A stretch of DNA of 64,000 nucleotides from assembly GCF_006345805.1 (NCBI RefSeq), contig NC_042997.1:50654001-50718000 (forward strand), read 5' to 3'. Made by a program: the position numbers and the translations under genes. Source of the DNA: Octopus sinensis (taxonomy: Eukaryota). The notes under the pieces were generated by a model. The model searched no databases, was not told the origin of the DNA, and saw only the letters and a program-made list of their open reading frames with translations. Shown here piece by piece: positions 6,962 to 59,819 of this stretch (its first letter is position 1; each line of letters begins with the position of its first letter).

Positions 6962-7500
6962 AAGGTGGCGAGCTGCCAGAAAGGTTAGCACACCGGGCGA
7001 AATGCGTAGCCGTATTTCGTCTGCTGTTATGTTCTGAGTTCAAATTCCGCCGAGATCGACTGTGCCTTTCATCCTTTCGGGGTCGATTAAATAAGTACCA
7101 GTTACGCACTGGGGTCGATATAATCGACTTTAACCGTTTTTCTATCCTTGTTTGTCCACTCTGAGTTTAGCCCCTTGTGGGTAGTAAAGAAATATGTATT
7201 TCGTCTGCCGCTACGTTCAGAGTTAATATTCCGCCGAGGTCGACTTTGCCTTTCATCCTTTCGGGGTCGATTAAATAAGTACCAGTTACGCACTGGGGTC
7301 GATATAATCGACTTTAACCGTTTTTCTATCCTTGTTTGTCCACTCTGAGTTTAGCCCCTTGTGGGTAGTAAAGAAATATGTATTTCGTCTGCCGCTACGT
7401 TCAGAGTTAATATTCCGCCGAGGTCGACTTTGCCTTTCATCCTTTCGGGGTCGGTTTGTCCCATCTATATTTAGCCCCTTTTGGGCAATAAAGAAATATG
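6962..7500 (+). mobile_element. tRNA-derived SINE, family B (MetaSINE-like domain) with internal 184-bp tandem duplication
   Basis: GGTGGCGAGCTG head; GAGGTCGACTTTGCCTTTCATCCTTTCGGGGTCG domain repeated; ORFs at 7148 and 7332 begin identically, 184 nt apart. Confidence 0.85.
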
Positions 7501-8992: not shown

Positions 8993-9657
8993 AAGGCGGC
9001 GATCTGGTAGAATCGATAGCAAGCCGGGCGAAATGTTTAGCGGCATTTTGTCCGTCTTCGAGTTCTGAGATCAAATTCTGCTGAGGTCGACTTTGCCTTT
9101 CATCATTTCGGGGTGGATAAAATAAATACCTATTTCTTTACTACCCACAAGGAGCTAAACACAGAGAGGACAAACAAGGACAGACAAACGGATTAAGTCG
9201 ATTATATCGACCCCAGTGCGTAATTCGTACTTAATTTATCGACCCCGAAAGATGAAAGGCAAAGTCGACCTCGGCGGAATTTGAACTCCGAACGTAACGG
9301 CAGACGAAATACTGTTAAGCATTTTGCCCGGCGTGCTGACGTTTCTGCCAGTTAGGCAAAGGGATCGATGTAATCTTCTTACTCTTCCTCCGAACTTGCT
9401 AGCGTTGTGCCAAAATTTCAAACCAATATCATATAAAAGGCGGCGAGCTGGCTGAACCGTTAGCAAGCCGGATGAAATGCTTAGAGGCATGCTGTTGGTC
9501 TGTACGTTCTGAGTTCAAATACCGTCGAGGTCGACTCTACCTGTCATCCTTTCGGGATCTTTAAAAGAAGTACCAGTCGAGCTCTGTGGTGGATGCAATC
9601 GACTTATGGCCTCCCCCAAAATTGTTGGTCTTGAGCTAAAATTTGAAATCAATATCT
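8993..9657. mobile_element. Cluster of family B SINEs in both orientations (8993-9130 +, 9130-9425 -, 9436-9657 +)
   Basis: Repeated GGCGGCGAGCTGG-type heads and central domain. Confidence 0.8.
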
Positions 9658-25000: not shown

Positions 25001-25390
25001 AGGCGGCGAGCTAGCAGAAACGTTAGCACGCCGGGCGAAATGCGTAACCGTATTTCGTCTGCCGTTACGTTCTGAGTTCAAATTCTGCCGAGGTCGACTT
25101 TGCCTTTCATCCTTTCGGGATCGATAAATTAAGTACCAGTTACGCACTGGGGTTGATATAATCGACTTAATCCGTTTGTTTGTCCTTGTTTGTCCTCTCT
25201 GTGTTTAGCCCCTTGTGGGTTGTAAAGAAATAGGTATTTCGTCCTCCTTTACGTTCTAAGTGCAAATTCCGCCGAGGACGACTCTGCCTTTCATCCTCTT
25301 AAGTTTGATAAGATTAGTACCAGTTGAGCCCTGGGGTCGATGTAATCGATCCCGAACTTGTTGGTCTTTTGTCAAAATTTGAAACCAATA
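25001..25390 (+). mobile_element. SINE family B, dimeric
   Basis: GGCGGCGAGCTAGCAGAAACGTTAGC head; central domain present twice. Confidence 0.85.
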
Positions 25391-43502: not shown

Positions 43503-43809
43503 GTAACTTTCTTTTATTAGCCACACAGGGCTGAATACAGAGGGGACAAATACAAATGCAGAGCTTTTCTTTTCGAGGGTGGAAAAAAAGAAAATAAATG
43601 TAAGATTGCGATCAAAAGGGATCGAGAGGAGGAAAAAAAAGAAAAGAAATCGTGTATCACAGAAACAATGATAAAAAAATTGATAAAACAAGATTGGGTT
43701 CATCCGTGGGAAGAAAAGTCTACAGAAAAGACCACGGGAAACTCAGTCAGGGAGGAAATAACCACATGAGATCAAAATGCTCTCTTTCTTTCTTTTTTAC
43801 GATCTACAG

Positions 43810-46800
43810 GATCATGCTCAAAATGGTTTCGTCACTCGCACGCACCATCTTTGCAACATTCACCCATCTTTTTTTGAATCTTTCGCGAGACAAAACTTCC
43901 CTCTCCATTCTCACCTTCCTTTTCAAGTGGTACTTGAAAAAGTTGATGAGCGATTGACCAGAGAGGTAAGTGTTTGTCTCTAATCATTTCGCTCGGGTCC
44001 ACCACACACATTCTTTCACTATGGCCACCAGTACGATGAAAACTGCCTTGCCTTCCCGGTTGAGGGAAGGGGGCAGAGCAATACCCACGACAGACTCGGC
44101 CGATAGGCGGATTCGTCCCACACGTGACAGCAGCCGTTCGGCATAAGCCCACAAGTCTGAAATGGTTGGACATTGCACGTGTCTGTAGAGCTTATCCCGA
44201 ACAGGTAATGCTTCTCGATAGCACTACCAGGCCAGGGATCTTTGGTGATTGTTCATAGGTCCCGGCCCGAAAGTTGTCCTGAACAGGCGGGTCAGGTGTT
44301 CCTCGTCGACGCCCAGACTCTGCCCGAGTTCGTCGTCGCACCTCCCCTCCACTAATCCTCTATAGAATGCCTTTGTTGTGATGGAGTCGCACAAGTTCGA
44401 TCCCGGACGGCAGAGTTGCTTGAGAGCAACGCGACACTCGCGGTGCCATTCGCCTAGCCTCGGTCTCTGCTTGATCCATGACTGTAGTTCGTCCAAGGAG
44501 ACGAGCTGTGGGAAAGCGCGCCGCACAAAAGACGACCACACCTGTTCACCGTTGTCTATGAAGCGCCGGAGATGTCGCAGTCTCAGCGCATGTCTGCACA
44601 TCATCAACCACGGCATGCCCAGCCCTCCATTTAGCGGGTGTTGACAGCAAATGGATCGCCTAACCATCGGAACGTTTCCCTTCCACAAGAAGCGGAAGAG
44701 TATACGTTCCAGTTTGGTGATGGTTGGGTCGGGACAAGGCACGACGGTCAGACGATACTCGATGACGGATGCGATGTACGCGTTCGCCACCTCCGCCGAC
44801 CTTTTAGGATAGCTTTCTCTTAGCCCATTTCTGGGTGAGAGTAGCCACCCTAGTCGTTATCTCGCCCCAGTTCTTCTCCATTTGGAGGTCCGGACCGAAC
44901 CAGACCCCGAGCAATTTAACCGGTCCGTCCGTCCAGCGTCCCACGATGGAGACGCTGTTGGACGGCATGGGCCTGCTTCTCCAGGTGCCGAGCCGCAAGC
45001 CCACTGACTTTTCCCGGTTAATTTTTGCTCCCGTTACCGCTTCGTATTCTTTTAGTGTCTCGCCGACCAGCTCGATGTGCTCGTAGCTCGACACTATGAC
45101 GGTGACGTCATCCGCGTATGCAGACACGCTCCTCCCGCATCCCAGCTCTCGTGGGATGCCCCTCAGCGTCGCCAGTTTCCGCAGTAGTGGCTCAAGAGTC
45201 AATACATACAGCAGCGATGAGAGGGGGCATCCCTGACGAACCGAACGCATGATGTTAAAAGGTCTGGATAGATGACCATTTACGCGAACTACTGAGCGGA
45301 TGCCGCTGTATAAGGCAGCGATCCAACCGCGGAAAACTGGACCGAAACCAGCCGCTTTAAGGACAGCCTCCAAGTAGTGATGGTCTACCCTATCGAAAGC
45401 TTTTGATTGATCCAAATTGATCAGCGCCCCACCCATGCCAGGATTCTTAACTACCCTGTCTATGATGTAGCGCATCAGATGGAGGTTGTCATGAATACTT
45501 CTACCCGGCACGGCGCATGTTTGCGCCTTGTCGATTAGTTTCTTGGTGACAAGCGCCAACCTCTCGGCTAACACCTTGGCCAAAATTTTCAAATCTGCGT
45601 TGAGCAGAGGGATGGGCCTGAAATTATCTATAACGTCCCCCTTGTTTGGGTCTTTCTTAATCAGTGCCACTGCTCCTCGCTTTACAAAAGCAGGAATACT
45701 CCCGTTTTGCTGCCAGTTGCAGTAGACAGCTGCCAAGACGCCTCCAAACAAGTCTGGCATATGAAAATAAAGTTCGTAGGGCAGACCATCCAAACCTGGT
45801 GACTTGTCTCTCGCGCAGCCTACCATCGCATCCTGTACGTCCGCAGCTGTGATAGGCCTTTCACAAGACTCCACCTCTCTTGCTGAGAGTCGTGGCAAGG
45901 CATGCAGGTAGGCACTAAAGTCCACTCTGCGTTCTGACCCACCACTTGTCCCAAACAGTTGGGTGAAGTGTTGTTGAAAAGCCCCACACATCCTTTTAGG
46001 CTCGAGCAATTCGCACCCCTGTTCATCTATAAGAGACTTGATGGTGGCTCTGTTGCCTCGTTGCGTCTCCACCACTCGGGCCTCTTGGGCGGCTCCAACT
46101 CCTTCGTTCCTCAGAGCACGCATCCTAGCCCTGACAACGCATCCCTTGTGTTTGGCGTTGAGGTGTTGGTCGAGGGCCAATCTCGCCGCCAGGACGTTGG
46201 ACGCGATGCCAGTTCTAAGTGCCTCTTCTAAAACCTTAACTAATTCTCCCTCTATTCTATTTCGGTCTAATGCTAGGGCTTTACTGTATCTGAGTGATTC
46301 TGCTTTAATTGCTTTTTTAGGGCATTCCACCATCTGTTGTTGATGATGGTACCTGTCAAAGCTCTCTTAACTAATGTGCTGATCCGGTCCTTGTAACCCT
46401 GTCGTGCTGTAAAAGACGCGTTCAGTTTCCATTAACCAGGACCCTGTCTATGTGTCTTATCTAAGTCAAGTGTACAAGTCACAAACTTGTGATCTGTGTA
46501 ACTGACTATATGAAATTGTGGACAACCTACACTATTTTTATCTATTGTCCTACAGAATACTCTATCTAAGTATGATCTGGACGACCCGATGCGGTTACTC
46601 CATGTCCACATTGGCACATTCGGGTGGTCCAGTCGGTACCTGTCAGACAGTTGGAAATGTCTGAGCAGGTCTTTGAGGCATTTTCATCCCCTTCTATTGC
46701 TATCTCTGCCCACGTAGTCTAGATGCGTGTCCAGGGTGGCATTCCAATCCCCCACTAAAAGTAAAGGACGAGACGTTCCCATGAAAGACTCTAGACGTCG

Positions 46801-47165
46801 AAAGAAATCTGGTCGGCCTGTTAAGGACGGAGCATAAACTGCCTACAGTCGAAAAGCACACTCATTGCTGCCATCGACATCCAAAACGACCAGCCTACCC
46901 TCCGGGTCTAGGAAAATTGCTCTTACTTTGAGATCCAGACTCTTCCGGAGAAGCACCGCGTTGCCACCTCCGCCCATTCTCGGTAGACACGGAGAAAAAT
47001 AAATGTTGAAATGTGTACCGAAACTGTGCTGGAGTGCCCGCAAGCTGTGGAGTCTGGTCTCACTGATGGCTATGATATTCAGATTTAGTGACTTGATGTC
47101 ATTTAACAGGTAGCCTTGTTTCCAAGGTGACCCCAAGCCACGTACATTTATACTGCCTATTCTAG
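43810..47165 (-). pseudogene. Tx1 ORF2 (APE endonuclease + reverse transcriptase) with stops and a deletion
   Basis: SINVRGL, ISETRL, VGDWNA, YLDRVF, TDHKFV; RT KSPGLDG, FRPIPLLNADLK, LDQSKAFDRV, RQGCPLS, AYADD (ORF 44804-46333); stops near 46843, 46685, 46432, 44804, 44224. Confidence 0.92.
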
Positions 47166-47259
47166 CATGTTCCGATAAAATTGTGTTTTACACACGAAAG
47201 AAAGTGCAAAAAAGGAAAGAGAGAGAAAAGGTTATTGTTGTTCGAAAGTCCTTTGTTTT

Positions 47260-49478
47260 TCATCTCACAGTCTTCTTCCATGAGGTTTTGTATAGTTTCT
47301 TTGATGAGTACTTTTGAAATCTCCCTACTGCATCGGGGTAAAGAGATTTCAGGGTGCTGTATGCGTTCTGTGTTATGTGTATTATTTTAATGTTTTGTGG
47401 TGGTGTTGTGCGTGGGTGGTTACTTGTTTTTATGTCGTTTTCAGTTATGTTGGTGTTTGACCTAATGTGTTCCATTAGGTCGTGGTTGTTTGTGTTTATG
47501 GCTGTCAACATTGTTGGGGGGCTTGATGATGGTGTGTTTGTGTTGATGTGTTTGTTTTCTGTGGATGTTTTTGTTTCGGGAGTGGTGAATCTTCCTGCTT
47601 TGTTTATTTTCTTTTCTTTATTTTTCCCTTTTCTTCTCCCACCCTGTGGCTATTTGCCAATCTTCTGTTTCTTCTTCGTCTAAGGACAAATCAGAAGAAT
47701 CAGAGCTTGGAAGAGGGAAAATATTGGGGTCTATTGTAGACTGTGTTGATTTTGTTGTTGTTGTTGGTTGGTGAGCGTTAGGTTGTGGTGTATGCGGTTT
47801 TGGAGGTGGGGTGTGGGTATTTTGTGCTTGAGTGATTGTAGGTATTGTTGTGTTGTTTGGGGTGTCAATTTTGTGGGGAATTAGAGTAGTAATGTTTTCT
47901 TCTTTCTTCATTTCGATGAGTGTCTTTTTGGCAGATGTCCTTGGTTTGGGAGTTGGTTATTCTTGTTGTTGTTGTTGGTGGTGTTGCTTCTGTTTTTGTT
48001 GTGCAGTTGGTGTGGTTGTTTGGTTGGTGAGGTTTGTTTTTTGTTGATTTTCTGTGATTAGTCCTGTTCGTGCAAAACGTGGTGTGGGTAGTAAAGCTGG
48101 TTTATTTGTTTTTTCCGGCTGCCGTTATTGTTGCTGTTGTTTTCTTGCGGCAGATTTGCAATCTTTTTTTAGGTGTTGCTCACTGCCGCATATGTAGCAA
48201 CGTGGTCTTCTGCCATCGACGACCACATACAACTTGTGGTCTTCTGATACACATATCTGGGTGGGTATTTTCTTTATGTCCTCTTGGTTTATATGTAGTA
48301 GAAATTCTACTTTTTTTCCCACCCAGTTTTTGTGCTTCGTGACCGTGGTTCCTAAAATTGTGAAATCTTCCATTTTCACACATAAGGCCTTTACTAGCCA
48401 TAGATTGTTAGCTATTTTTGGGACATTGTTTAAAGTGATCTTAGTCACTTTCTGTCCACGATAACTTGGTGTTAGTTGAAGTTCATCTGAATGAAGAGTT
48501 AGCGTTGAGAAACGTCTTGCTAACTCTTCAGTGTGGAATACCACTTGTATGTGTGCGAACTTGTTCCACCAGGTCACATACTCTTTGTAGTTCCAGATGG
48601 GTTTCAAGCATTTTTCGATTTTGCTTGTGTTAGCCTTCTCTGGACTTTGTGTTTTCTTATTAATTATTTTATAAATAATTGTTCTTTTTTTTTTCATCTT
48701 CTAATATTTCTTCTGGTATGTTTATTTTTACTATACCATCTACTTCCGTTATTAAAATGTTCGTGTCTTTTATTTGTTGTGCAGTAAAATATACTGTTGT
48801 CTTTTTTTCTTTTATCGCCTCGGCGAAATTTGTTGTTGTTTTGTTATTGTTGTTACTGGTGGTGATGTTGTTGGCTGCAGTTGGTAAAATCGGTGTATTT
48901 GGTTTGATTGTGCAAATAGGAAGGGGTGGAAAATTACTTGCATAGTTTATCCCTGTATTCGAGCAGCTTTTGTCAATTTGTTTGGTGGTCACAGTCTTTT
49001 GTTTATTCCCTTCAGTTCTTGTTGTTGGAGTAAAACAGGTCTGAACGGAATTGTTGTTGTTGTTATTGTTGTTTTTGTTGTTAGTGATGGTGTCAGTGGC
49101 AGAAGAGACAGCCGTGGCAGCAGATGTCGAAATGGTGGCGCAATTTTTATTTTTGTTGTCATTGTTATTGTTGTTGTTGTTGGTAGTTGAGGTAGTGGAG
49201 GAGGTGGCGGTGGTGGTGGTGGTGGTGGAGGCGGTGGTGGTGGAGGCGGTGGTGGTGGAGGCGGTGGTGGTAGCAGTAGTAGTCTCGTGGTTGTTGTTGT
49301 TAGTGGTGGTGGTGGTGACAGGGCTGTTACCGCACGTGGTTGCAGCGTTCATTCGACCGTTATTCATGTTTGCACTTTGCGTGCGTACGTTCTTTTTTTC
49401 TCCTAGCGTTTCCAAACTAGGAAAATGCTGCTCCATAAAGGAACGCGACCAGCGTTCTACAATAAAATTTCTCGACAT
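47260..49478 (-). pseudogene. Tx1 ORF1 (RRM-like region + CCHC knuckle, long Thr/Asn tracts), frameshifted
   Basis: ORFs 48669-49478, 48125-48697 (DGRRPRCYICGSEQHLKKDC), 47618-47911, 47260-47511; frameshift in an A homopolymer near 48690. Confidence 0.8.
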
Positions 49479-49675
49479 TTTCTAATGTTGAGAAGAAAAT
49501 TACAGAAATGAAATGGGGTTGAAACTGCCCCTAGGGGCGAATTCCTCCCTTGGAAAAGCACTCAAACGAAAGTTGGGTGCCTTACACACCTTATTTGCAA
49601 AAATGTACATAAAAATTGGGCTATAAATAGTCAAAATAAACGATTACCTTCGGAGCCGAAGTGACAGCACGTCCA

Positions 49676-57280: not shown

Positions 57281-57281
<1 letters not shown>

Positions 57282-57800
57282 CTTTATATATATAAAACTG
57301 AGAATGTGTGTCTGTCTGTCTGTCTGTGTGTTTCCCTAAAACTTGAGAACTACACAACCAATTTCATTCAAATTTTACACATGCCTTACTTAGGGTCCAT
57401 GTAGTTTCATTGGCAAAAAAAAATGTTCAGTTTCTTGCCTAGGGCGAGCCCATAGCAATATCATATCTTCTCCACTATTTCAGTATTACGTGTTAAAAGT
57501 GAAACAAAAACATTTCTCTATTTTATGTCAGATACTTTCACTTTAACAATAAAAATAATAATAACAATCGAATTATATGTAGTAAGTAATAATTAAAATC
57601 AACCTAAAGTATAATATAATCGTAACATAACAAAAGTAAAAATAGCAATTGGTATAAAATTGCATCAATGCCTTGAACTTGAATAAGTGGTTTCACATAA
57701 ATGGGAATAAATTAAAAATAAAATTAGCGTACAGAAATGGAATAGTCCAGATGGATAATAAAAAATTAAATTAAAGAAAAGACTATTGTCTATAAAGTAT
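57281..57800 (+). mobile_element. Helitron-type 5' portion
   Basis: TCTTTATATATATAAAA...TGTCTGTC start like 30532; 3' CTAG end not seen. Confidence 0.5.
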
Positions 57801-57817
57801 ACAATGTAGAGAAAAAA

Positions 57818-59492
57818 GGTCGCGTTTTTTTGCGCTCTGTAAAATTCGGTTAAAAAAGAAAAACAACAAAAAGTGAATTGTGGTTGCGGAATTGGAACGT
57901 CGGTTGGTGCGGTTTCGCGTCGCACTGGTTCTGTGCGTCGCACGTTTTCTGTTCGGGAGGCCGTTTTTCGGTCTGAGGCGACTATGAGCCGCCTCTACCA
58001 AACGGATGAGATGGAAGGGAGAAATTTCTCTGAAAATTCGTCGACATCTGAGGAGGAGTTGGCGCTGAAAAAAATGGAAAGCACCTATGCAGGTATAACG
58101 AAGAAGTCAACAGAAAAAGAGATAGACCTGGCTAAGTTGACGGACTTCCAGGAGTTCATGAAGGAGGAGGAGAACGGAGAGGTTGAGCTGCTGCCTCCAG
58201 CAGGGCGCGGAGACTGGTTCCATCGTAGAACCATTAAATATAAAGTATTTATGAATGGAGGTAGAAAAATGGAAGTGTTTAACATGGAAGCAATTGAAGA
58301 GGCTTTCAAACGGACAGGAGAAGAAATTGTGTACATGACAAAAGGATTAGAATATGGAACCATAACGGTACAATTTAAAAGTGAGAAAGCAGCCAGGAAT
58401 ATAGCAGCCAAGGTGGTGAGTACAGAAAAGTTTTACTTGTTCCCCTCGTATTTGAATAGAAGGACCACCAGAATTAGGGTGGAAGGAATACCTCCACACC
58501 TAGAGGGCGAATTAATAACGGCTGCGGTTATCAAAGGAATGAAGATAAAGTGGACATCCTCCACGCCATTATGAAATATGAAGGCGTGAGAGGTGCCACA
58601 CTAGTAATGAACATACAGACGGAGGCGGAAGTTATAGAAAAGCTAACGGACAGTATAAAAACTGGAAATATTATTATGAGAGTGTGGGTGGAGGGTAGGG
58701 CGCCCAGGTGCTACAAGTGTGGCATGAGGGGTCACATAAGAGCCTACTGCCCTCCACCACTAAAGGAAAAAGAAAAGGAATCGTCGCGGAAGCCCCAAAA
58801 GAGGAAGAAACCAAAGAGAACCAAAGGGAAAAAGAAACGACAGAAGAAGAGGAGATGCAACAAGAGTGGGAAGAAGGAAGAAAAAAGAGAAAAAGAAAGA
58901 AAAAGAAAACTGTGCGAAGCCCCAACCCACCCCAACACCACCCGCACCCTCTGAATCCCACCCTTCCCCTGCAGACAGTGAACCCACCCGCTCCCCTCCA
59001 ACAAGAAAACAAAAGAAAAATAACAATACAGACAGACAAGAGTTTGAAAACGAACCCAGGCCGAACATTTATATTGTGACTGAACAGAAAGAGGTTGAAA
59101 GGGTAATGGAGGAGTATGAATGGTATGAAATGGATGGGACCAGATATGCAGTGCTGGAAAAGAAGAATATAGATGAGTTTGTGTTGAGGTGTGAAAGGGA
59201 GAATTGGGAGGTGAAAGGTACAAGAATGAGCGATGAATTCGTGGAATATATGGAGGACAGTTTCGGAGTAAGAATGGATATGGATGGTCTTCGTATTGGG
59301 AATGAACATTCAGGTGACAGTGAAAACAAAAGGACAGGTAAGTGATGCTGGCGGAGGGGGCCGTTAGCATCGCTTTCATATTATCATTTTTTCATTTTCA
59401 TTTGCTCATAAATTTAATCATATTGTTCTATGTCCCCCATGTTTTGTTATGTCCGCCATTCTTCGTAGCCCCTGGTGGGTAATAAAGAAATA
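57818..59492 (+). mobile_element. ORF1-only (no EN/RT) Tx1-related element, apparently full length
   Basis: CpG-rich leader, frameshifted ORF1, pyrimidine-rich tract, then GTAGCCCCTGGTGGGTAATAAAGAAA matching the Tx1 3' end. Confidence 0.8.
57984..59345 (+). pseudogene. ORF1 protein (RRM-like, CCHC knuckle, acidic/basic tract, C-terminal domain) with about three frameshifts
   Basis: ORFs 57873-58574, 58550-58954 (EGRAPRCYKCGMRGHIRAYC), 58708-59079, 58866-59345. Confidence 0.75.
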
Positions 59493-59680
59493 ACATGGAG
59501 GAAAGCACCTTCGAAAAGTGTCTTGGTGCGACTATGAAAGATATCTAATCAGAGGCGGTAAATTCGCCACAATAGAAGCAAGGTTCGAGTCAATGGAGTG
59601 TGCAAGGGAGTACTCGACTCGAACGTGCAAAGTAGAAATATTTTATTTTTACCTTTATATCTGGGATGTAGGACGTCTCG
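59493..59680 (+). mobile_element. Fragment of another ORF1 variant
   Basis: YLIRGGKFATIEARFESMECAREYSTR aligns by eye with YMTKGLEYGTITVQFKSEKAARNIAAK. Confidence 0.6.
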
Positions 59681-59819
59681 GAAAAATGGGTCGATTCATT
59701 TGGCAAAAAACTCCTTCAAGATGGTTATCCAGCATGGGCTGCAATCCAATGACTGAAACAAGTGAAGAGTAAAACGGAAAAGGTTAAAAGAAAAGCAATA
59801 AAAGATAAGACACGTATGT

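What the first reader, a model, noticed from the sequence alone, without database searches (positions are those of the whole stretch)
57818..59492. ORF1-only 'half-Tx1' element sharing the autonomous element's 3' terminus
Seen: a ~1.7 kb unit with leader, one ORF1-type reading path (RRM-like region, EGRAPR-CCHC, acidic tract + W + RKKRKRKKK, Pro linker, extra C-terminal domain) and, ~120 bp after the stop, GTAGCCCCTGGTGGGTAATAAAGAAA versus Tx1 GCAGCCCTGTGTGGCTAATAAAGAAA. There is no EN/RT sequence. Its ORF1 is far diverged from the local Tx1 ORF1, so it is not a simple deletion of that element. Known analogy: mammalian HAL1 (half-L1). Inference: a non-autonomous family that encodes its own RNP protein and borrows Tx1 ORF2p.
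Basis: partly seen in the sequence, partly recalled or inferred. Interest (0 to 1): 0.8.

Follow-up and report, generated by a model that had tools for sequence, protein, structure and literature searches.

The report
Half-LINE homing into octopus Helitrons
This octopus jumping gene keeps only its RNA-binding protein and likely borrows a relative's copying enzyme; dozens of its copies sit at one exact spot inside another transposon, likely from repeated landings steered by bits of neighbouring DNA carried in its own RNA.

Summary
It is a young multicopy ORF1-only retrotransposon (subfamily A) of an Octopus genome. Natural copies carry an intact 454-aa ORF (two predicted RRMs, CCHC); the window copy has three frameshifts. 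None of 47 sampled relatives has EN/RT before the tail. ORF1 core dN/dS is 0.10-0.23, and truncated copies at unrelated sites have 14-18-bp TSDs, so the family retrotransposes. An intact 5.2-kb APE-RT element and other ORF1-only families use the same site and form mixed head-to-tail arrays. Helitron arms are 2.8 times more decayed than the cargo (19 of 23 loci), favouring repeated homing over hitch-hiking. Each subfamily prefers its own first target bases, consistent with priming by read-through RNA. The helper is more likely the 5.2-kb family than the local microsatellite Tx1. ORF1-only LINEs (HAL1, HeT-A, Ag-Sponge) and Tx1 targeting of DNA transposons are known; this combination was not found in the papers searched. 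New variant of a known kind.

The parts
57281..57817 (+). Left arm of a ~1-kb non-autonomous Helitron (starts TC after a host A); lacks the last ~12 bases before the target site
   Evidence: Shared by 21 of 30 copies directly upstream; empty elements with the intact site in 17 of 30 left-arm hits; position
57791..57817 (+). Predicted 27-nt RNA leader taken from the Helitron arm (inferred transcription start near 57791)
   Evidence: 15 of 39 tail-to-head junctions have exactly 27 nt before the GGTCG-like motif, from 4 leader sequences; DPE at +28 to +32 from PMC4748587 passages; not shown experimentally
57818..59492 (+). ORF1-only retrotransposon, subfamily A
   Evidence: 39 near-full-length matches at 92-100% among 40 scored candidates of 667
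57818..57830 (+). DPE-like motif and T run, the fixed 5' core of A-E and of the autonomous relatives
   Evidence: Seen at the 5' core of units; function inferred
57984..59345 (+). ORF1 (454 aa in intact copies): acidic N-terminus, RRM1 (about aa 74-159), RRM2-like (about aa 159-240), CCHC (aa 242-257), acidic/basic helix, Pro linker, small alpha/beta C-terminal domain (aa 363-441); three single-base frameshifts in this copy
59336..59343 (+). Splice-donor-like AG|GTAAGT overlapping the ORF1 stop; a like motif stands at the ORF1/ORF2 junction of autonomous relatives
   Evidence: Sequence; the splice-donor label is recalled, function untested
59344..59371 (+). Conserved 11-bp hairpin with a G-rich loop opening the 3' UTR; several 5'-truncated copies stop here
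   Evidence: 22 of 25 cluster representatives in register, 94.6% of cells paired, shuffles 93.3 +/- 0.4%, 10 of 2000 reach it; truncations
59447..59492 (+). 3' terminal tail shared with autonomous elements, other ORF1-only families and a SINE; AATAAA at 59481-59486; no poly(A)
59493..59686 (+). Right arm of the Helitron, cut short after 194 bases in this copy; a decayed relic of a related ORF1 that spans the target site
   Evidence: tblastn of ORF1s against an empty Helitron, best E 3e-11
43510..49480 (-). Local broken Tx1-like element inserted in (ATCT)n; similar tail but probably not the helper
   Evidence: (EN 49% identical to the 5.2-kb family)

Best explanation
The unit is an ORF1-only non-LTR retrotransposon whose copies sit at one fixed site of a non-autonomous Helitron, and it likely moves by coating its RNA with its own ORF1p, borrowing ORF2p from an autonomous L1/Tx1-group relative, and likely homing to that site again and again because its RNA would carry short pieces of the Helitron at both ends. 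Shown: no ORF2 in the lineage, TSDs and 5' truncations, purifying selection on ORF1, one target site, arms older than cargo, subfamily-specific first target bases. Inferred steps: (1) a DPE-type internal promoter starts transcription about 27 nt upstream, in the flank; (2) cleavage after AATAAA falls 10-25 nt into the downstream flank; (3) ORF2p of the 5.2-kb family or a sister binds the shared tail and starts reverse transcription at the fixed element end, primed where the nicked DNA pairs with the read-through bases; (4) the cDNA end switches onto upstream DNA that matches its leader, which copies the same 12-base junction deletion into each new site; (5) each insertion leaves or makes a new target just upstream of the resident, so mixed arrays grow at their 5' side. 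My odds: ORF1-only trans-mobilised element 0.92; repeated homing rather than hitch-hiking 0.85; RNA-flank steering as the main cause of the site choice 0.5.
For: ORF1-only: 398 genomic hits of a clade-specific ORF1 pattern; 47 distinct hits examined, all run into the same 3' UTR, 0 with EN/RT before the tail. TPRT marks: truncated A-tail copies at unrelated sites with TSDs of 16, 17, 17, 17-18 and about 7 bp; B- and D-type likewise 14-17 bp. Selection: core dN/dS 0.10-0.23 in 12 of 15 pairs, the other 3 saturated. Tree: A-E clade and F/G clade each starred, long-branched, 28-39% identical to autonomous ORF1s. Site: 66 of 72 A tails at the Helitron site or its duplicate, 1 in the left arm, 5 elsewhere. 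Intact autonomous element (ORF1 457 aa, ORF2 1131 aa, APE-RT-zf) at the same site with a 12-13-bp duplication. Homing: private substitutions 1.44% in each arm vs 0.51% in cargo, arms higher in 19 of 23 loci, p 9e-5, no per-locus correlation; 1.85% vs 0.66%, 9 of 11, for the autonomous cargo; filled arms mixed with empty ones, AU p 0.035; 5 of 51 left junctions keep the undeleted site, in several forms; B/E bodies with an A tail sit at the A site. Flank memory: the B' tail is followed by CCA in 33 of 49 hits and 21 of 37 distinct flanks, present in both TSD copies where checked, against 0 of 72 for A; 25 of 30 carriers examined are ORF1-only, 5 too short, none autonomous; shared target prefix within subfamilies 1.58 nt vs 0.58 shuffled, p 0.0005, 45 flanks; two off-site A insertions begin with the same six bases as the Helitron site. 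The autonomous family with near-identical EN (94-97%) goes to the site in 22 of 23 copies with one tail variant and 0 of 6 with the other. Array polarity: junction bases follow the upstream unit, e.g. B' inserted at CCA inside an A ORF (L254) and F with a 16-bp TSD in the A 5' end.
Against: No experiment and no RNA evidence: promoter, read-through and priming are inferred. 46 of 51 left junctions carry the same deletion, which hitch-hiking also predicts. 11 of the 23 loci in the age test were picked by likeness to the window; among the other 12 the arms are higher in 9. The arm tree is star-like with no starred branch. At least three autonomous families (EN about 70% alike) occur in the arrays, so partner-specific endonucleases could explain part of the subfamily preferences. 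Off-site A targets match the Helitron site for 6, 6, 3, 3, 2 and 0 bases, and off-site autonomous copies match poorly. One A tail inserted beside a truncated resident that has no promoter (L259), so a promoter is not needed for re-targeting. The 27-nt count is dominated by one leader (11 of 15). The flanks in the permutation test are not fully independent.
Confidence: 0.72

Rival explanations
1. Same element, but the site is chosen only by the endonuclease: each ORF1-only subfamily is carried by a different autonomous partner whose EN prefers different bases, and arrays arise by double insertion at sites that TSDs regenerate.
For: Several autonomous families co-occur with different subfamilies: one with A at the Helitron site, another with B/C in SINE heads. 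Tx1-clade targeting of DNA transposons and TSD-separated tandems are documented (PMC4494074; 10.1101/158386).
Against: One EN type gives 22 of 23 vs 0 of 6 site use by tail variant; no autonomous carrier of the CCA-preferring tail among 30 of 49 examined; A leaves no TSD at the site where the autonomous family leaves 12-13 bp.
Confidence: 0.35
2. A inserted once into a Helitron and was then multiplied as cargo by rolling-circle transposition.
For: 46 of 51 identical left junctions and one right junction; complete composite elements at many loci; intact RepHel ORFs exist.
Against: Arms 2.8 times more decayed than cargo and uncorrelated with it; cargo sub-lineages spread across arm variants; filled arms not one clade; several junction forms and chimeric cargoes at the same nick; free A copies with TSDs. 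Some hitch-hiking may still occur.
Confidence: 0.12
3. The local microsatellite-inserted Tx1 at 43.5-49.5 kb supplies ORF2p.
For: Its tail matches 45 of the last 60 bases.
Against: Other autonomous tails match as well or better (44-47); it sits in (ATCT)n while 0 of 72 A tails are followed by that repeat; its ORF1 is further from A (25%) than those of the array partners (32-33%); this copy is broken.
Confidence: 0.07
4. A recent internal deletion or decayed fragment of an autonomous element, with no role for its protein.
For: The window copy is frameshifted; 24 of 30 copies lack the full ORF.
Against: The ORF1-only clade has diverged to 55% identity with dN/dS 0.12-0.23 and never carries ORF2; B-, F- and G-type proteins at 87-92% occur in Octopus vulgaris gene models.
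Confidence: 0.02

Closest known systems
HAL1 (half-L1) of mammals
   Same: Non-autonomous, encodes only ORF1p, arose more than once (PMC5753468 passages); here two separate ORF1-only clades.
   Different: Mollusc L1/Tx1-group lineage with RRM-RRM-CCHC ORF1p, no poly(A), a specific shared tail, strong site preference and tandem arrays. The primary HAL1 paper (Bao and Jurka 2010) was not held, so its non-mammalian examples could not be checked.
HeT-A (Jockey clade) and Ag-Sponge (CR1 clade)
   Same: ORF1-only LINEs that depend on an autonomous partner (PMC5786205 passage); HeT-A forms mixed head-to-tail arrays with its helpers (PMC6719617 passage).
   Different: Arrays here are interstitial, inside a Helitron, SINE heads or unique sites, and grow by nick-primed insertion with TSDs; no host function is known.
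Tx1L into Tx1D (Xenopus); Tx1-Mar and SINEU into Mariner-N4 (crocodilians)
   Same: Tx1-type elements and their non-autonomous passengers target a fixed place in a DNA transposon; tandems with TSDs; 5' extensions taken from the target; hitch-hiking tested and rejected (PMC4494074 parts 2-3; PMC6719617).
   Different: The passengers are protein-coding ORF1-only elements, not SINEs; the target is a Helitron, within a captured relic of the same ORF1 gene family; preferences differ between young subfamilies.
R1Bm / SART1Bm priming on read-through or target-like RNA
   Same: RNA 3' bases that match the target improve accurate initiation (PMC7265360 passages).
   Different: There the target is one fixed host repeat; here the matching bases appear to differ by subfamily and to be re-set by the flank of each source copy (inferred).

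Membership tests
ORF1-only non-autonomous LINE (HAL1/HeT-A/Ag-Sponge type) | Encodes an ORF1p-like protein | tested here: met
   Homologous to ORF1 of APE-RT elements; predicted RRMs, Z 8.8, rmsd 2.3, 77 aligned, and CCHC
ORF1-only non-autonomous LINE (HAL1/HeT-A/Ag-Sponge type) | No ORF2 in the family | tested here: met
   0 of 47 distinct hits examined, of 398
ORF1-only non-autonomous LINE (HAL1/HeT-A/Ag-Sponge type) | Independent retrotransposition (TSDs, 5' truncation) | tested here: met
ORF1-only non-autonomous LINE (HAL1/HeT-A/Ag-Sponge type) | ORF1 under purifying selection | tested here: met
   Core dN/dS 0.10-0.23; C-terminal domain 0.38-0.76
ORF1-only non-autonomous LINE (HAL1/HeT-A/Ag-Sponge type) | Mobilised in trans by a partner's ORF2p | not testable with these tools
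   Inferred from shared tail, site and TSD lengths
HAL1 proper (derived from mammalian L1) | L1-type ORF1p (coiled coil, RRM, CTD) and poly(A) tail (features recalled) | tested here: not met
   Two RRMs plus CCHC and no poly(A) at any junction listed; works like HAL1, is not HAL1
Tx1 clade (autonomous partner) | APE, RT and C-terminal zinc motif of the L1/Tx1 group | tested here: met
   Pfam; nearest solved relative is human L1 ORF2p, E 2e-64
Tx1 clade (autonomous partner) | RT groups with Tx1L, Keno, Kibi, Koshi rather than with L1 | tested here: inconclusive
   No reference RTs available for a tree; the only named hit among 22 was a fungal TX1-like protein at 26%. The Tx1 label rests on ORF1 type and targeting
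Helitron (host element) | 5' TC, 3' hairpin then CTRR, inserted between A and T without TSD | tested here: met
   495 exact copies of the 30-base 3' end, T follows in 98 of 100 listed; A-TC starts; intact RepHel elements end in a like hairpin and CTAG in 5 of 10 examined
Helitron (host element) | A RepHel element with the same termini that mobilises it | tested here: inconclusive
   None of 10 RepHel regions examined had the same arms around its ORF; 150 of 1309 candidates were scored
Inr-DPE core promoter | Motif at +28 to +32 from a mapped start site | tested here: inconclusive
   Spacing fits at 15 of 39 junctions; no start site mapped

The most novel reading that the evidence does not exclude
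A community of octopus retroelements shares one copying enzyme, yet each lineage inherits its own address: promoter and poly(A) signal sit at the very edges of the element, so every RNA includes flanking DNA at both ends, and those flank bases steer priming and 5' joining to matching sites. Target specificity would then be a heritable, re-writable RNA trait rather than a property of the endonuclease, letting ORF1-only parasites colonise a Helitron or a SINE head and build integron-like mixed arrays of up to 10-11 units.
Probability: 0.42. Interest if true: 0.82.

Novelty: new variant of a known kind. Interest (0 to 1): 0.62.

Why it matters
It gives a young, intact and multi-lineage case of ORF1-only LINEs, with helper, passengers and target all present, so the open question of why a parasite keeps its own ORF1p can be tested directly (cis advantage, helper capture or interference). 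The swapped C-terminal domains on a conserved core suggest an arms race that can be assayed. If flank memory is right, an APE-type LINE can be re-addressed through a few RNA bases, which would explain how Tx1-type elements change targets so often and would interest builders of RNA-templated gene insertion tools. For octopus genomics it shows that apparent Helitron cargo and satellite-like arrays are nested retrotransposon landings.

Tried and rejected
Expression: no RNA holder listed on record; laying four guessed-RNA contig sets cannot show transcription, start, end or strand. Empty allele of this exact locus: four further runs hold empty-site joins but only short pieces that cannot be tied to the locus. 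Rfam on four loci gave only sub-threshold miRNA hits on simple repeats; no ribozyme match. Single-sequence fold of the last 100 aa was unusable, pLDDT 43; the C-terminal domain therefore has no fold match tested. Pfam names only the CCHC, below cut-off for A. Word-index protein search found only three Octopus vulgaris gene models holding C-terminal pieces. A 45-codon frame after the ORF1 stop was dropped: it is not kept in relatives and the conservation fits the hairpin. The reading that new units are added at the 3' side of arrays was rejected because junction bases follow the upstream unit. A YY1-like reading of the target bases was considered from recall and not tested. Mantel tests of arm versus cargo distances were null, but so was left versus right arm, so they have little power. 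Three look-ups of earlier findings returned nothing. Literature: searches found no ORF1-only Tx1-type element or Helitron-targeted LINE in octopus; one search returned 0 papers. Repbase entries, Bao and Jurka 2010 and the repeat library of PMC13282606 (supplements not read) could not be seen and may already list these families.

Full report
Observation. The 1675-base unit at 57818-59492 is real and its ends are exact. A search of the window's own genome (2.7 Gb; protein relatives are named Octopus) scored 40 of 667 candidates and returned 39 near-full-length matches at 92-100%. Six of the 30 fetched copies have an intact 452-454-aa ORF; the window copy differs from one of them by 10 substitutions and three single-base frameshifts. 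An AlphaFold model from a 14-row alignment (mean pLDDT 66, 80-89 in the core) shows two RRM-like domains, a CCHC knuckle and a small C-terminal alpha/beta domain; fold searches return tandem-RRM proteins. The ORF is 25% identical to the local Tx1 ORF1.

It is a family that lacks ORF2. A degenerate pattern for the clade's ORF1 has 398 genomic hits. I examined 47 distinct ones, including those that lacked the usual 3' UTR pattern: all continue into the same 3' UTR and none has EN or RT before the tail; two RT matches lay beyond the tail. Units cut from arrays fall into ORF1-only families A-E (one starred clade, 55-90% identical in the core), a second ORF1-only clade F/G, and autonomous families; the groups are 28-39% identical to each other in the core. 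Core dN/dS is 0.10-0.23 in 12 of 15 pairs, with synonymous sites saturated in the other three; the C-terminal domain is looser (0.38-0.76) and is shuffled among families. Truncated copies at unrelated sites carry TSDs, mostly 14-18 bp. These are the marks of target-primed reverse transcription by a borrowed ORF2p; the borrowing itself is inferred.

All 30 top copies are followed by the same few bases, and 21 are preceded by the same 540-base sequence; the other 9 follow the tail of another ORF1-only unit. The flanks are the arms of a 1-kb non-autonomous Helitron: A-TC start, 3' hairpin and CTAG, T next in 98 of 100 listed of 495 exact copies; RepHel elements end alike. Seventeen of 30 left-arm hits show the empty site. 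Of 72 exact A tails, 66 are at this site or its duplicate, 1 in the left arm and 5 elsewhere (the pattern drops flanks with C at its last place). The site lies in a decayed relic of a related ORF1 that the Helitron carries. An intact 5.2-kb element (ORF1 457 aa; ORF2 1131 aa with APE, RT and zinc motif) and families F and G use the same nick and leave 12-13-bp duplications. Mixed head-to-tail arrays reach 10-11 units. B and C copies build similar arrays in the head of a SINE that shares the tail, and short arrays occur at unique sites.

Homing or hitch-hiking. If the composite were copied whole, arms and cargo would be equally old. In 23 loci with both arms, private substitutions away from gaps are 110 of 7629 (left), 121 of 8419 (right) and 167 of 32500 (cargo); arms exceed cargo in 19 of 23 (Wilcoxon p 9e-5) with no correlation. 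Eleven of these loci were chosen by likeness to the window; in the other 12 the count is 9. The autonomous cargo shows the same (9 of 11). Filled arms are interspersed with empty ones (AU p 0.035, star-like tree). Five of 51 left junctions keep the undeleted site, and chimeras with B/E bodies and an A tail sit at the same nick. Against this, 46 of 51 junctions share one deletion. I read that as copying by homology: a leader transcribed from the arm would re-create the junction at each landing.

What picks the site. First target bases differ by subfamily. After the B' tail, CCA follows in 33 of 49 hits (21 of 37 distinct flanks) and is present in both TSD copies where checked; it follows 0 of 72 A tails. 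D tails are followed by G in 13 of 13. Within subfamilies the shared prefix is 1.58 nt against 0.58 shuffled (p 0.0005, 45 collapsed flanks, not fully independent). Autonomous copies with 94-97% identical EN go to the Helitron site in 22 of 23 cases with one tail variant and 0 of 6 with the other; 1 of 30 had no tail. No autonomous element carried the B' tail in 30 of 49 examined. AATAAA lies six bases from the element end and no copy has poly(A), so the RNA would include flank bases that can pair with the primer strand; SART1 and R1Bm give precedent (PMC7265360, passages). At the 5' end, 15 of 39 junctions have exactly 27 nt before a GGTCG-like motif, the Inr-DPE spacing reported for insect LINE promoters (PMC4748587 and PMC8384218, passages); 11 of the 15 are one leader type. 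The rival, partner-specific endonucleases, remains open because at least three autonomous families are present, and one insertion beside a promoterless stub shows that sites can be re-used without a promoter (L259).

The helper. The local Tx1 sits in (ATCT)n, is broken, and its tail is no closer to A than those of the array partners. The 5.2-kb family or a sister is more likely. Its placement in Tx1 rather than L1 was not tested by a tree.

What is known. ORF1-only LINEs are described from L1 (HAL1), Jockey (HeT-A) and CR1 (Ag-Sponge) (PMC5786205 and PMC5753468, passages). Tx1 elements that target DNA transposons, with SINE passengers, TSD-separated tandems and target-derived 5' extensions, are described in Xenopus and crocodilians (PMC6719617, passages; PMC4494074, passages and parts 2-3 of 5). 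Double insertion as a source of tandems is described in Drosophila (10.1101/158386, passages). A recent Octopus vulgaris repeat annotation lists 13 recently active L1-Tx1 and 8 Helitron families and, in the part read, says nothing of ORF1-only or nested forms (PMC13282606, part 1 of 3; supplements not read). Bao and Jurka 2010 was not held and Repbase could not be consulted.

Verdict. A genuine ORF1-only non-autonomous retrotransposon, a new variant of a known kind. Its added value is the system around it: two long-lived ORF1-only clades, an intact helper, a Helitron landing site and subfamily-specific target memory that can be tested directly. Interest 0.62.

Noticed in passing
window 6963-7498 (+); further tails at 9131-9157 (-) and 25206-25232 (+): SINE with a 184-bp internal tandem repeat and the same 3' tail as the ORF1-only and autonomous elements; B and C units insert about 15 bases into the head of this SINE family elsewhere. 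Not matched to a named octopus SINE.
   Followed up: partly
window 41361, 42986, 43510, 49849 (-): Four 3' ends of the local Tx1-like family, each followed by (ATCT)n: a microsatellite-targeting lineage stacked in one repeat tract.
   Followed up: partly
window 57770-57817 and 59493-59686; L086: The Helitron carries a decayed piece of a related ORF1 gene, and the retrotransposon target site lies inside that relic (best E 3e-11).
   Followed up: partly
window 59336-59343; ORF1/ORF2 junctions in L165, L183, L200: A splice-donor-like AGGTAAG motif sits at the ORF1 stop in both ORF1-only and autonomous elements; splicing from it could be how ORF2 was lost, or it may bind U1.
   Followed up: no
L251, L259, L281, L295, L306: 5'-truncated copies stop at or in the 3' UTR hairpin, as if reverse transcription pauses there.
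   Followed up: partly
P0001, P0002, P0027, P0039: The C-terminal domain of family B appears at 87-92% identity at the ends of gene models (two named Octopus vulgaris), either exonised or mis-predicted.
   Followed up: no
L333-L338 (G000 C12599, C4 158.76 Mb, C1 119.63 Mb): Helitron RepHel frames of 1720-1846 codons without stops: autonomous Helitrons are recent in this genome.
   Followed up: partly
L197+L053, L196+L041, L186+L187, L188+L189: Arrays of 8-11 mixed retroelement units, 14-20 kb, inside one Helitron or one SINE; possible seeds of satellite DNA.
   Followed up: yes
L236 (G000 C2 157.26 Mb): A different Helitron-like element of about 390 bases inserted at the end of an ORF1-only element's ORF.
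   Followed up: no
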